Part shown: piece after piece, positions 13,229 to 58,342 of the stretch | How the letters are laid out: each line of letters opens with the position of its first letter | How positions within the stretch are numbered: the first letter of the stretch is position 1 | Assembly: GCA_951406725.2 (NCBI GenBank) | Contig: OX597830.1 | Location: 31,248,001 to 31,312,000, forward strand | DNA from: Octopus vulgaris | Lineage: Eukaryota | Reading direction: 5' to 3' | Length of the DNA stretch: 64,000 bases | Translations under genes and position numbers: made by a program | The notes under the pieces: generated by a model | What the model saw: the letters and a program-made list of their open reading frames with translations, nothing else | What the model was told of the DNA's origin: nothing | Database searches by the model: none

Positions 13229-13433
13229 AGTCAATCCAAATAAGAACAACCAAGAAAAAAAAAACAACAACGCGAGGACGTGGTACAAATACTGTGTTAC
13301 TGGACGCTCAGGAAAGGAAAGAAAAGAAAGTGGATTTCACGTTTCGAGCGGAGGTCTTCATCAGAAAAATTGAAAAAGTCCTAAGAAGGAAAGACAGAGA
13401 TAGAAAATCGCCAACGATACACATGCGGTCACA
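13229..13433 (-). mobile_element. ~200-bp hammerhead-bearing repeat (Penelope pLTR/retrozyme-like), copy 1
   Basis: Homologous to 32942-33149 and 57921-58120. Minus strand 13335-13368 reads tttt-CTGATGA-a-gacc tcc gctc-GAA-ACGT-G-aaat. Abuts (TCTA)n. Confidence 0.7.
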
Positions 13434-14630
13434 TATTGAAATATATATACTTATGTGTGTATATATATGTAGAAGGTTGAAAAGAAACACAAATATATGT
13501 ATGTATGTAAGTATGTAGAAGTACATGCATGTGTATACGTGTGTGTGTGCTTGCGTGTGCATGTATATGTATGAAAAGCCCTGTGGTGGCGAAACTTCAA
13601 GTCATAATTTGAACATACAATATAGAAGACGTTTTCTAGAAATACGTGTGTGTACGTATGTATGTATGTATGTATATATACACGCGCACGCACGAACACA
13701 CACACACACACACCCACACATACACACACACATCTAGCAGAATGGATATGTCGCTCAAAAACCTTTGTTTCATGTATTACAAACTGAATTTAAATCGTAC
13801 TATGTATGTATGTATGTATGTATGTATGTATGTATGTATCTATCTATCTATCTATCTATCTATCTATCTATCTATCTATCTATCTATCTATCTATCTATC
13901 TATATATATATATATATATATATATATATATATATATCTGTTTGTCTGTCAATTCAGCCATCTATTTTTCTGTGTGTGTGTATGTATTTATTTATGTATG
14001 TATTTGTGACTTTATGGGCGTTGGGCTGTGTCTGTATGTTTGTGTGTTTACGTATATACATATTATACATATATGTGTGTATGTGTGTGTATGTGTTTCA
14101 AGCAAAGGAAAACAGGAGAGCTCAGAGTACGATCGTCTACAGAAAAACCATAATCTACGGTTCAAACCATACGCAAGGATATCAAATCGGTCATGTGATT
14201 TCTAACCGTGAATACTAGCCATCATGCCAACATTTTCTCCATGTCTATTATCATTGCTTCAACAAACACCTAAACAATAACACCTATAGATCATACGAGT
14301 GAACCCTTACGTGGCTCTGTACTTTTCTAAAAAATTTCAGCCAATAGACACCAAAATTATAGCCCTGTTCTCTTGCATAGGGCAACAATACATAGGCTAC
14401 TGTCGTTAGAGATTCACTGTGTTGAATATATGGCAAAATGGTTGGTCACTTCGGGAACGCTTTTGCTAATAAATAAGGTTGCTTGATCTAATTTGCCCAA
14501 GGGGGTCAAGTGCCACACCAAGTAAGTTTTAGAAATGATGCAAACACCAGCATTTCGGGAAGCAGAGAGGAAACTGTGTACAGGGTATGTTACTGTAACT
14601 TATTCTTCTTGGTCACTAATCCCTACCGGT

Positions 14631-15080
14631 GATAATAATAATAATAATAATAATAATAATAATAATAATAATAATAATAATAATAATAATGATGATGATG
14701 ATGATGATGATGATGATGATAATGATGATGATGATGATGATAATAATAATAATAATAAAGATAATAATGATAATAATAATGATAATAATAATAATAATAA
14801 TAATGATGATGATGATGATGATGATGATAATAATAAAAATAATAATAATAGTAATAATGATAATAATAATAATAATAATAATAATGATAATCATAATGAT
14901 AATGATAATAATAATAATAATAATAATAATAATAATAATAAATAATGATAATAATAATAATAATAATAATAATGATAATAATAACGATAATAATAATAAT
15001 AATAACAATAATAATAATAATAATAATAATAATAATAATAATAATAATGATAATAATGATAATAATAATAATAATAACAA
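14631..15080. repeat. Compound (AAT)n/(GAT)n microsatellite
   Basis: Directly visible; source of the poly-N/D/I/Y ORFs. Confidence 0.95.
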
Positions 15081-15159
15081 CTACAATAAAATAATGATAA
15101 TAATTATACTTTCTTTTATTGGCCACAAGGGCCGAACGCAAAACAAATAGGGACATCCT

Positions 15160-15790
15160 TTCTACTATAGGCACAAAGTCTGGAATTTGTCGGGAGTGGG
15201 TGAGTCGATTGCATTGACCCCTGTACCTATTTTATCCCACGAAAGGACGAAAGGCAAAGTCAATCACGGCGGGTGAAGACGGACGAAATGCCGCTAAGCA
15301 TTTTGTTCGGCGTGCTAACGATTCTGCCATCTCACAGATGATGGTTTCTGGTTTAGGTACAAGACCAGTGATCCTGGCCGGAGCAGACTAGTGGATACCA
15401 TCGACCCTAGTACTTAAGTAATATTTAAATTTTTGTTGATCACGAAAGGATGAAAAATTAAGTTGGCCATAGAAGGATTTGAACTCGTAGCGACGTTATT
15501 TATAAGGGCATAGTCTATGTGTGTTTGTGTGTTTGTGTGTATGTGAACGAACTGGAATAAATACTACAAGGCATTTTGCCCCGACGATCTTAATTCCTTA
15601 TAACATCGGTGCAAAGCTACAAATTTGTGGAGGAAAGGATGCGGTTAGTCGACTGAATCAACTAGTACTTTATCTATTGACCAGCCACCCCACGCTCCCC
15701 ACCCCCAGAAGGATGAAAGGCGAAGTTGAACGTAAAGAACCGCAGTAAATACCACAAGGTATTTTATTAGCGGCAACAATAACTCTGCTA
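15160..15790 (-). mobile_element. Cluster of ~3 diverged family-B SINE copies
   Basis: Repeated cgaaagga(c/t)gaaa / gaaggatgaaaggc, gacgaaatgccgctaagcattttg and tttctactataggcacaa tail motifs in reverse orientation. Confidence 0.65.
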
Positions 15791-16190
15791 CTTCAAATAA
15801 TAATTTAATTTAAACGTGGGCCCCAAATGGTCAAACGTAACAATTGGGTCTTAACCGATTTAATCGACACACTATCACTTGATTGGTACAAACCCACCTC
15901 ATATTTCTGCAACCCAACTGTATCCGGATGAAACGTTAAGTCATCCCCCGTGGAATATGAACATTAAAGATATTTTCCTGATAAATCTGTGTTTGTCACT
16001 AGAGGTCACGCTAATGAATGTTGAATATTGGCGCAACAAAACTGAAGAACAGGATAAGTCGCTCGACTGAAGTGACTGAGAATGAAATGTGACAGTACAC
16101 AATAAGTTCTTCTGTTTTTTTTTTGGGGTTTTTTTTTTTTATAATGACAGTACAAGAATTATGGAAAATATCGACACAGGAGGCTATTAA

Positions 16191-56589: not shown

Positions 56590-56865
56590 GGTGCATAGCT
56601 CAGTGGTTGGAAATTTGGGCTTACAATCGTGAGGTTGTGAGTTCGACCGGGTTGTGTACTGTGTTCTTAAGCAAGACACAATTGTAGAAATGAGGTGCCG
56701 AAGTGTACCGGCCTCTGCTTTACCCTTGGACAACATCGTTGGTGTGAAGAGGTGAGACGGCTGGTCTTGCTCAAAACAACTTTACCTGGGTTTGTACCTC
56801 GGTGAGGAACCTCTTAGGTGCAATCCCATGCTTAATCGTGACCGAATGGAGTCTTACTTTTTACC
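56590..56865 (+). mobile_element. Diverged family-C SINE
   Basis: gcatagctcagtggttg...gaggttgtgagttcga...gtgttcttaagcaagacac; tail similar to the reverse complement of 40072-40250. Confidence 0.65.
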
Positions 56866-57220
56866 TTTATGTACACACAAAATACAAGAGCGCAAACACA
56901 TATATATCCATTTATGTTTCTTTTACAGGATTCATTCTTCGCACTTGGGCCACTTTAAACAATTTTTATATCCTGCGATGATTATTTCATCAGTTACAAC
57001 ATTCTTCCAATGATTTTAACCTGCATGTTATAAAACGCAGCTACAACGCGCTACTATTATGACTTCATTCAGAAGATGAGACCGAGACGTCGTTGAAACA
57101 TTACTAGACACAGGAATGTTATTGATCCAAATTTATTATAAAGGGATAACAAGGAAATAGGAAATACCTTCAGTAATAAAGATTAAACTAGAGTGCAGCA
57201 GCTATACATACATGCATATA

Positions 57221-57427
57221 CAGTAATCCCTCGCCATATCATCGTTCTTCTATCGCTCACTCAGTACATCGCAGATTTTTCTAGCTAATGCATGTGAATT
57301 TATATCGCGGACTCCTCAGGATATCGCAGGTTTCTGCGGCCGATAAGTATTTATATATTGTTTAGATTCTAATTATTTCTGTAGGAGGTTTTGGAACGTA
57401 ACACCCACGACAATCGAGGGATTACTG
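57221..57427. mobile_element. pogo/Tigger-like MITE
   Basis: Perfect 13-bp TIRs cagtaatccctcg / cgagggattactg; preceded by TA, followed by CA. Confidence 0.8.
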
Positions 57428-57775
57428 CAGATATAAAAATACTTAAGAAAAAGAGATGACACAGAAATGAACGATTAAGTTATGAAGTTCGTAACTTAAT
57501 GGTTTATTCGTCTGTCATCTTATTTCCTCATTACAACCTCGTACTTGACTAATACTTCGTTCAGAAGCACCCATATATTGAGTTCTACACCAAATTGTTA
57601 GTATCGCAATGCCTAAACAAAATATATAAATATTTATATAAAACAAAAAGAAGAATGGCGAATTATATATTTTTTTACTTCATAATTTGTAATCCAATAT
57701 GAATGACAAATTATGCAGTGACGGCAGCCTCTCGAGACCGAGAAAGACGGTTCTGTAATTTTTTGCTGAACAACC

Positions 57776-58342
57776 GGCGCAGGCATGACTGTGTAGAAAG
57801 AAGTTTGCTTCGCAACCGCATGCTTCCGGGTTCTAGGTAAGTGTTTTCTACTATAGCCTTGGGACGACCAAAGCCTTGTGAGTGGATTTGGTAGACGGAA
57901 ACTATATGTATATATATATAGTTAATCCAAACATGAACAAAGAGAAAACACAACGTGAGGACGTGGAACAAGTATAGTGTTATTGGACGCTCAGGAAAGG
58001 CAAGAAAGAAAGAGAATATAACGTTTCGAGCGGAGCTCTTCGTCAGAAACATAGAAAAAGGAAAGGTCCAAGGAAGGGAAGACGGAGAACGAAAATCGCC
58101 AACGATACACACACGGTCACACACACACATATATATATATATATGTTGTGTGTCTATGTTTGTTCCTCCTACCATCGCTTGACAACCGATGTTGGTGTGT
58201 AACCTGGCGGGTCAACAAAAGAGACCGATAGAATAAGTACTAGTCTTACAAAGAATAAGGACTGGGGTCAATTTGTTCGACTAAAGGCGTTGCTCCAGCA
58301 TGGCCGCAGTCAAATGATGGAAACCAATAAAAAGAATAAAAG
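57776..58342 (+). mobile_element. Family-A SINE interrupted by the hammerhead repeat
   Basis: Head 57776-57903 and 3' half 58145-58342 flank the insertion in the internal (TA)n. Confidence 0.85.
57921..58120 (-). mobile_element. ~200-bp hammerhead-bearing repeat, copy 3
   Basis: Minus strand 58016-58050 reads gttt-CTGACGA-a-gagc tcc gctc-GAA-ACGT-T-atat; cores and stem II intact. Confidence 0.75.

What the first reader, a model, noticed from the sequence alone, without database searches (positions are those of the whole stretch)
13229..58120. Non-coding ~200-bp microsatellite-inserting element carrying a minimal hammerhead ribozyme (3 copies)
Seen: copies at 13229-13433, 32942-33149 and 57921-58120 share the same left end (agt[t/c]aatccaaa) abutting (TA)n or (TCTA)n, with no ORF, TIR or pol III boxes. 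Their consensus minus strand is gttt-CTGAYGA-a-gagc-tcc-gctc-GAA-ACGT-T-aaac: 4-bp stem I, both catalytic cores, 4-bp stem II and a loopless palindromic stem III. Established: such minimal type I hammerheads mark Penelope-like element pLTRs and metazoan non-LTR retrozymes and cleave efficiently as dimers. Inference: a cephalopod retrozyme-like family, or solo pLTRs, mobilised by a PLE into TA microsatellites and possibly making small circular RNAs. Caveats: an extra A after the core, a GUU/GUG triplet, and each copy has mutations.
Basis: partly seen in the sequence, partly recalled or inferred. Interest (0 to 1): 0.75.

Follow-up and report, generated by a model that had tools for sequence, protein, structure and literature searches.

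The report
Solo Penelope ends with hammerhead motifs
The three repeats are lone ~200-base end pieces of a Penelope-type jumping gene, a known kind that carries a predicted self-cutting RNA motif, and the thousands of copies in this genome mostly stop at one fixed point, likely because copying ran off the start of the element's RNA.

Summary
In detail: three 76-82% identical copies with a minimal type I hammerhead. They are not a retrozyme family. The same ~205-213 bp is the terminal repeat (pLTR) on both sides of an RT + GIY-YIG ORF in full-length elements elsewhere in the genome (7 loci; one natural 816-aa frame; Neptune/Nematis-type linker). The genome holds at least 12,383 copies (about 35,000 estimated), dispersed, not in arrays. 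The RNA-sense 3' edge is exact and abuts microsatellite in 73 of 85 copies; the element's own next bases are (T/A)TATATA, which could prime on (TA)n. Of 70 copies chosen only by the ribozyme core, 50 start within one 22-base window, so this is not random 5' truncation. Likely mechanism: reverse transcription starts inside the 5' pLTR and runs off the RNA 5' end, a strong-stop-like product. The start site is inferred, not mapped. The 'extra A' is normal for these ribozymes. The commonest core is the weakened U4C variant (7,943 versus 3,020 exact matches), and no excess of copies starts at the cut site. Known kind; the mechanism lead is modestly new.

The parts
13230..13442 (-). Solo pLTR copy 1; starts at the 5' wall (TTTCAATATGTG), ends at the fixed 3' edge; (TCTA)n on the left, (TA)n on the right
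13334..13368 (-). Minimal type I hammerhead motif, damaged (stem II C-C mismatch, G at position 17, stem I outer pair lost)
13150..13229 (.). (TCTA)20 microsatellite abutting the RNA-sense 3' edge of copy 1
32948..33151 (-). Solo pLTR copy 2, from a different subfamily (U4C core), starting about 15 nt inside the wall; (TA)n on both sides
33059..33093 (-). Hammerhead motif with the subfamily's CCGACGA core and a private A13G change; predicted inactive
57921..58122 (-). Solo pLTR copy 3, inserted in the internal (TA)n(TG)n tract of another repeat
58016..58050 (-). Hammerhead motif with both cores intact (CUGACGA, GAAA), GUU triplet, one U-U mismatch in stem I
57790..58345 (+). Host repeat (~470 bp family) split by copy 3; three uninterrupted copies in the window show the empty site with its microsatellite

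Best explanation
The three repeats are solo terminal repeats (pLTRs) of a Penelope-like retrotransposon with reverse transcriptase and GIY-YIG endonuclease, likely made when reverse transcription starts inside the 5' pLTR and runs off the RNA's 5' end after about 210 bases. Shown: full-length elements read pLTR - 5'UTR - ORF - CA-rich 3'UTR - pLTR; short copies share an exact 3' edge, pile up at one 5' position and sit in microsatellites. Inferred steps: (1) transcription starts near the TCA(TT)/TTCA motif at the pLTR's 5' edge; (2) the endonuclease nicks (TA)n and the nicked end pairs with the RNA's own (U/A)UAUAUA just past the pLTR; (3) priming at the 5' pLTR gives a ~210-nt strong-stop-like cDNA that is integrated as a solo copy, while priming at the 3' pLTR gives long, randomly truncated copies. 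The hammerhead rides along. It is the usual PLE minimal motif, could only form helix III as a dimer, and is probably not needed for insertion. Solo copies are probably dead ends.
For: PLE identity: 7 of 20 fetched junction loci hold pLTR-ORF-pLTR. [quoted passage not shown] It has 657 homologues with RT and GIY-YIG domains; the named ones are from shark, coral, gastropods and sea urchin. Window copies align end to end with these pLTRs. 29 of 30 loci found with an upstream piece carry the 200-bp end or part of it. 3' edge found in 85 of 90 copies; microsatellite within 6 nt in 73 of 85, against 6.6% of random sites. The empty site of copy 3 already has the microsatellite. The element continues with (T/A)TATATACCGCAC, and many solos keep the TT of TTTATATA. 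5' wall: 50 of 70 core-selected copies start within -11..+10 of the ATGTG anchor and 3 were scored long, one wrongly; 16 of 30 in an overlapping sample selected nearer the 3' end. About a dozen with non-microsatellite flanks stop there too (read by eye). 737 TA-flanked starts at the wall against 80 at the cut site (patterns not matched like for like). Literature: TSS and internal promoter lie in the Penelope pLTR (PMC2377424); a Poseidon RT initiates internally at the pLTR-ORF junction, and hammerhead mutants still insert (PMC11167929).
Against: No transcription start was mapped. The initiator match (GTCATT fits BBCA+1BW) is a degenerate hexamer and is not kept in all subfamilies. The wall is a 20-nt zone, and ATATGTG resembles TA/TG flanks, so microhomology could contribute. 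In the youngest lineage 9 of 20 copies are long. In mini-tandems, 7 of 19 second pLTRs start upstream of the wall (-13 to -56), and 10 of 44 5' pLTRs extend upstream of it; these cannot come from an RNA that starts at the wall. In the Poseidon study the RT start had no homology to the target, unlike step 2. Pfam hits for L258 are below the curated cut-offs. Samples are the first listed matches on contig 1 and favour young copies.
Confidence: 0.62

Rival explanations
1. They are ordinary 5'-truncated PLE copies primed at the 3' pLTR; the wall is a reverse-transcriptase stall or a microhomology hotspot (ATATGTG against TA/TG flanks), not the RNA end.
For: A stall gives the same cliff-then-plateau pattern. 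Second pLTRs in mini-tandems join at -56..+35 around the same place. Most 5' flanks are TA or TG repeats.
Against: Copies with non-repeat flanks stop at the same zone. Long copies of the youngest lineage pass it and break at scattered lengths of about 0.8 to 5 kb. TA/CA-rich stretches further up the 3'UTR showed no comparable pile-up in these samples.
Confidence: 0.2
2. Short copies are a SINE-like non-autonomous family: solo pLTRs with an internal promoter are transcribed and re-mobilised in trans by the PLE protein.
For: Short copies outnumber long ones about 15-25 to 1 in older subfamilies but about 1 to 1 in the youngest. pLTR sequences sufficed for trans-mobilisation in a rotifer (PMC3846280).
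Against: All 5 clusters of 183 copies contain long or ORF-linked members. The Poseidon protein needed RNA about 55 nt past the RT start, which solos lack.
Confidence: 0.1
3. Solo pLTRs arise by recombination between the two pLTRs of full-length copies, like solo LTRs.
For: Proposed for several rotifer solo pLTRs (PMC3846280). The solo share rises with subfamily age.
Against: Only 59 pLTR-5'UTR junctions were found, against more than 12,000 pLTRs. The two near-full-length young copies lack a 5' pLTR, and short copies already exist in that lineage.
Confidence: 0.05
4. A non-LTR retrozyme: tandem units self-cleave to a small circular RNA that is re-inserted.
For: Type I hammerhead, no ORF, PLE kinship as in 10.64898/2026.07.22.740005. 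20 of 44 junction loci are pLTR-5'UTR-pLTR mini-tandems.
Against: No arrays: 2 of 77 copies have a same-strand neighbour within 600 bp, and the clustered copies inspected are separated by TA tracts and differ in sequence. All 20 mini-tandem joins differ. No excess of starts at the cut site. The commonest core is U4C.
Confidence: 0.03

Closest known systems
Minimal type I hammerheads in pLTRs of metazoan Penelope-like elements (Cervera and de la Pena 2014, PMC4209133; parts 1-2 of 4 read)
   Same: 4-bp stem I, extra nucleotide between 9 and 10.1, G10.1-C11.1 pair, palindromic 15.2-16.2 with no loop 3; mostly single motifs attributed to truncated PLEs.
   Different: Stem II is only 4 bp (7-8 bp in Schistosoma). 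The majority core is U4C. Single copies here have a defined 5' edge.
Neptune/Nematis-type EN+ PLEs (Craig et al. 2021, PMC8557442 and its preprint; passages read)
   Same: Single ORF with RT and C-terminal GIY-YIG, CX2-5CxxC linker, CCHH, pLTRs, partial tandems and inverted 5' copies, microsatellite bias.
   Different: Long CA-rich 3'UTR (1.3-3 kb) and a large excess of solo pLTRs. Neptune versus Nematis was not resolved.
Poseidon PAc of Anolis (Frangieh et al. 2024, PMC11167929; parts 1-2 of 4 read)
   Same: Hammerhead in the pLTR; copy ends fixed at an internal site near the pLTR-body junction; AT-rich targets.
   Different: Here the RNA past the edge is homologous to the (TA)n target, and the ORF starts about 250-300 nt after the pLTR rather than inside the ribozyme. 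The parts read do not discuss solo pLTRs.
Solo pLTRs of Adineta vaga Penelope (Arkhipova et al. 2013, PMC3846280; passages and Discussion read)
   Same: pLTRs of 181-218 bp with an Inr-like motif; solo copies exist.
   Different: There a handful, ascribed to recombination or deletion; here tens of thousands.
Metazoan non-LTR retrozymes (PMC7229834, passages; 10.64898/2026.07.22.740005, parts 1-3 of 5)
   Same: Non-coding, type I hammerhead, related to PLE pLTRs.
   Different: No tandem arrays, minimal rather than canonical ribozyme, no sign of a circular template.

Membership tests
EN+ Penelope-like element (pLTR) | Repeat flanks a single ORF with RT and C-terminal GIY-YIG | tested here: met
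   Pfam hits weak
EN+ Penelope-like element (pLTR) | Partial tandem and inverted arrangements | tested here: met
   L115 tandem, L116 and L110 inverted
EN+ Penelope-like element (pLTR) | DKG motif and CCHH residues in the endonuclease | tested here: met
   against definitions
EN+ Penelope-like element (pLTR) | Transcription start inside the pLTR | not testable with these tools
   only assembled contigs were available
Neptune/Nematis clades | CX2-5CxxC linker between RT and EN | tested here: met
   CSRSRCNTC in L258
Neptune clade specifically | RT groups with Neptune references in a phylogeny | not testable with these tools
   no clade-labelled reference sequences were held; 'Neptune-like' rests on recalled motif similarity
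PLE minimal type I hammerhead | CUGANGA and GAAA cores | tested here: inconclusive
   met in 3 of 5 clusters and window copy 3; U4C in the other two and in most exact genomic matches
PLE minimal type I hammerhead | Stems I and II, extra nucleotide 9/10.1, G10.1-C11.1, palindromic helix III | tested here: met
   covariation limited to one stem I pair between this and a sister family
PLE minimal type I hammerhead | Self-cleavage as dimer or with protein | not testable with these tools
   needs an experiment; MFE folds do not favour the motif in whole copies
Non-LTR retrozyme | Head-to-tail tandem units each with a hammerhead | tested here: not met
   2 of 77 copies have a same-strand neighbour within 600 bp; a genome-wide array count was not obtained
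Non-LTR retrozyme | Circular monomer RNA | not testable with these tools
   contigs only; copy ends do not follow the cut site
Pol III SINE | A and B boxes | tested here: not met
   no B box on either strand

The most novel reading that the evidence does not exclude
Tens of thousands of these solos are integrated strong-stop cDNAs: a genomic record that a Penelope-type RT primes on (TA)n by pairing with its own internal UAUAUA and copies to the RNA cap. The one-off pLTR-5'UTR-pLTR mini-tandems (361-687-nt units between two hammerheads) are template-jump products of the same process and the raw material from which retrozymes are born. The lineage kept expanding after its ribozyme core changed to U4C.
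Probability: 0.4. Interest if true: 0.6.

Novelty: new member of a known kind. Interest (0 to 1): 0.36.

Why it matters
The element class and the ribozyme are known. What this family adds is a very large natural sample of insertion ends for a retroelement class whose mechanism is poorly understood. It gives three cheap tests: whether solo pLTRs mark the RNA 5' end, whether microsatellite targeting comes from primer-template pairing, and whether hammerhead cleavage matters at all, given that the U4C form dominates here and a sister family with a changed position 6 has 14,552 exact copies. It also warns that such ~200-bp repeats in annotations can be PLE termini rather than SINEs or retrozymes.

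Tried and rejected
Rfam: no hammerhead hit. PDB sequence search with the 816-aa ORF: no match at E<=1. Sequencing runs: no RNA holder listed; 20 runs in 9 studies hold the stretch as contigs, 14 only guessed to be RNA. Laying 4 of them on L253 covered most of the ORF and gave far higher summed depth on the pLTR, but contigs show no start, strand or level, so this is not used as evidence. Idea that the ATG in stem I starts the ORF, as in PAc: rejected; the sequence past the edge reaches a stop within about 12 codons in L011 and L115 (read by eye), and the ORF's N-terminal part begins 250-300 nt later. Purifying selection on the core in genomic copies: 96.4% (1112/1153) against 94.7% (15237/16086) elsewhere, non-CpG sites, 129 copies; the difference is small, as expected for dead copies. 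Cut-site-anchored copies: 80 genome-wide, 1 of 30 in a sample; no peak. The 255 versus 7,741 counts either side of the wall are not like for like, because the upstream 20-mer fits only some subfamilies; used only as a pointer. One search had a wrong anchor offset and one TA-flanked reference; it was redone. No genome-wide count of tandem pairs was obtained. Earlier-findings look-ups by sequence and by words were blank.
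Full report
Observation. The three copies are present, in one orientation, 76.7-81.8% identical. On the minus strand each carries a minimal type I hammerhead: stem I GUUU/AAAY, core, an extra A, stem II GAGC-UCC-GCUC, GAA, palindromic ACGU, position 17. 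Only copy 3 has both cores intact. There is no B box and no piece of the element's ORF in the window. Rfam does not detect the motif (one search listed 150 of 857 hits, all miRNA-like matches to microsatellites). The window lies on contig C17 of a 2.8-Gb animal genome; an octopus-like host is my inference, not a result.

Copy number. Exact matches genome-wide: 12,383 for a 21-mer near the 3' end, 3,020 for the 30-nt ribozyme with CUGA and 7,943 with CCGA; reversed controls 0. Forty 10-kb stretches at round-number positions held 5 copies, i.e. about 35,000 genome-wide (95% interval 11,000-82,000).

What it belongs to. Of the 30 closest loci, several run on upstream in shared sequence. That upstream piece lay 100-200 nt from the 200-bp end, or part of it, in 29 of 30 loci. 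Further upstream lie a GIY-YIG domain and a reverse transcriptase. L115 is a tandem in which the 200 bp runs straight on into a 5'UTR and a second ORF. That junction occurs 59 times with at most one mismatch. Of 20 junction loci fetched at length, 7 are complete pLTR-ORF-pLTR elements. [quoted passage not shown] Pfam hits are weak (RVT_1 E=0.0016, GIY-YIG E=0.008), but 657 homologues were found among 7,991 scored candidates, the named ones from shark, coral, gastropods and sea urchin. By the definitions in PMC8557442 (passages) this is a canonical EN+ PLE of Neptune/Nematis type. The window copies align end to end with the pLTRs of L258, L253 and L115.

The 3' edge and the target. The edge was found in 85 of 90 copies; 73 of 85 have a microsatellite within 6 nt and 67 of 85 have TA, against 6.6% and 4.2% at 5,000 random sites. 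Copy 3 sits in the internal (TA)n(TG)n tract of another repeat whose three intact window copies have that tract, so the microsatellite came first. In full-length elements the pLTR is followed by (T/A)TATATA, and many solos keep the TT of TTTATATA. I infer priming by pairing between the nicked (TA)n and this RNA stretch. A linker-mediated microsatellite bias has been hypothesised, and in the Poseidon system the RT start was not homologous to the target, so this step is open.

The 5' edge. Among 70 copies chosen only by an exact ribozyme core (50 CUGA, 20 CCGA-GUU), 50 start within -11..+10 of the ATGTG anchor, 9 at +11..30, 4 further in, 4 at -12..-100 and 3 beyond -100. One of those 3, L184, is a mis-score caused by a neighbour, and L313/L314 look like one duplicated locus. 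Of 30 copies chosen nearer the 3' end (partly the same loci), 16 start in that window, 1 is long and 1 starts near the cut site. About a dozen copies with ordinary flanks stop at the same place (by eye). The 20 copies with a GUC triplet differ: 9 are long and 7 start at the wall; the long ones of the youngest lineage (mostly 95-98% identical) break at scattered lengths of about 0.8-5 kb. All these samples are the first listed matches on contig 1 and favour young copies.

Mechanism. Penelope has its transcription start and an internal promoter in the pLTR (PMC2377424, passages). The Poseidon RT starts internally near the pLTR-ORF junction and needs RNA beyond that point (PMC11167929, parts 1-2 of 4). 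Put together, priming at the 5' pLTR should give a short cDNA ending at the RNA 5' end, which is what the solos look like. The wall lies at GTCATT in some subfamilies, a match to BBCA+1BW (PMC5287114, passages), but the motif is degenerate and not kept in all. Against a simple run-off: in 44 of the 59 junction loci examined, 20 were scored as pLTR-5'UTR-pLTR mini-tandems (one doubtful), all with different joins; 7 of 19 second pLTRs start upstream of the wall, and 10 of 44 first pLTRs do. A stall at the same place would give a similar pattern. I put run-off at about 0.6 and PLE-pLTR identity above 0.95.

The ribozyme. The extra nucleotide, the G-C pair and the palindrome are the listed hallmarks of PLE minimal hammerheads, which cleaved not at all as monomers and weakly as dimers (PMC4209133, parts 1-2 of 4). 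Clustering 183 copies gave 5 groups, each with short and long or ORF-linked members; two groups, including copy 2's, have U4C as the majority (35 of 36, 20 of 23) and a third is mixed. U4C lowers activity considerably in vitro yet allowed viroid infectivity (PMC3088659, passages). A sister family has the same stem II, a GUAG loop, a compensated outer pair of stem I (C-G for G-C) and U or C at position 6; it has 14,552 exact copies. Hammerhead mutants did not affect insertion in the Poseidon system. Only 80 TA-flanked copies start at the cut site, against 737 for one pattern at the wall. Cleavage was not tested.

Retrozyme reading. Retrozymes are tandem arrays giving circular RNAs (PMC7229834, passages; 10.64898/2026.07.22.740005, parts 1-3 of 5; its supplements were not seen). 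Here 2 of 77 copies have a same-strand neighbour within 600 bp (80 examined, 3 without a readable core), and the clusters in L252 and L045 are separate insertions spaced by TA. Membership fails on that feature. Earlier notes of this scan describe separate 360- and 485-nt retrozyme families in this genome; I did not check them.

What is in print. Seven searches. 'solo pLTR' occurs in one paper, PMC3846280 (passages and Discussion), for a few rotifer copies ascribed to recombination or deletion. I found no description of a run-off origin of solo pLTRs, nor of this family; subscription journals, Repbase, Dfam and the library behind PMC13282606 (parts 1-2 of 3 read) could not be searched. PMC12602865 and PMC6962438 (passages) added nothing. 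The NUH rule for position 17 and the label 'Neptune-like' are recalled.

Verdict. A real feature and a new member of a known kind: solo pLTRs of a Neptune/Nematis-type PLE with the usual minimal hammerhead. The fixed 5' wall, the TA homology and the dominant U4C core are the parts worth following up. Interest 0.36.

Noticed in passing
L157:459-494, L119, L138, L146, L150 and others; genome-wide: A sister short element in TA repeats with the same hammerhead shape but U or C at core position 6, a GUAG loop and a compensated stem I pair; 14,552 exact 31-mers, 5 copies in 400 kb. Its link to an ORF was not checked.
   Followed up: partly
L189, L194, L197, L198, L201, L204, L207-L209, L211-L214, L217, L218, L255, L257, L259, L266: One-off pLTR-5'UTR-pLTR mini-tandems with units of 361-687 nt, most joined 195-312 nt after the pLTR, near the ORF start; the size range of retrozyme units.
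   Followed up: partly
L289, L292, L290, L291, L293, L294, L298 (contig C1): Youngest lineage of the family, mostly 95-98% identical over kilobases, with CCGA core, GUC triplet and a U-U mismatch in stem I; probably recently active.
   Followed up: partly
L099-L101 (G000:C8:24.519-24.532 Mb): Three RT/GIY-YIG copies of the family spaced about 6.0-6.4 kb apart with no pLTR hit; probably a local tandem duplication.
   Followed up: no
L249, L252, L258, L264: The 3'UTR is a 1.3-3 kb degenerate (CA)/(CATA) array, so the element itself spreads microsatellite-like DNA.
   Followed up: no
window 30073-30533, 37755-38224, 51890-52320, 58598-59069: A ~470-bp interspersed repeat with an internal (TA)n(TG)n tract, several copies; host of copy 3. 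Not classified.
   Followed up: partly
window 48564-48986, 54783-55014, 59974-60209: Another ~235-bp interspersed repeat, 87-92% identical between copies, partly duplicated in tandem at 48564-48986.
   Followed up: no
L061:+ oriented 800-3400, L067, L068:6062-7496, L289:1-1350: Pieces of other, unrelated Penelope-like families (RT and GIY-YIG) in the flanks; PLEs are diverse in this genome.
   Followed up: no
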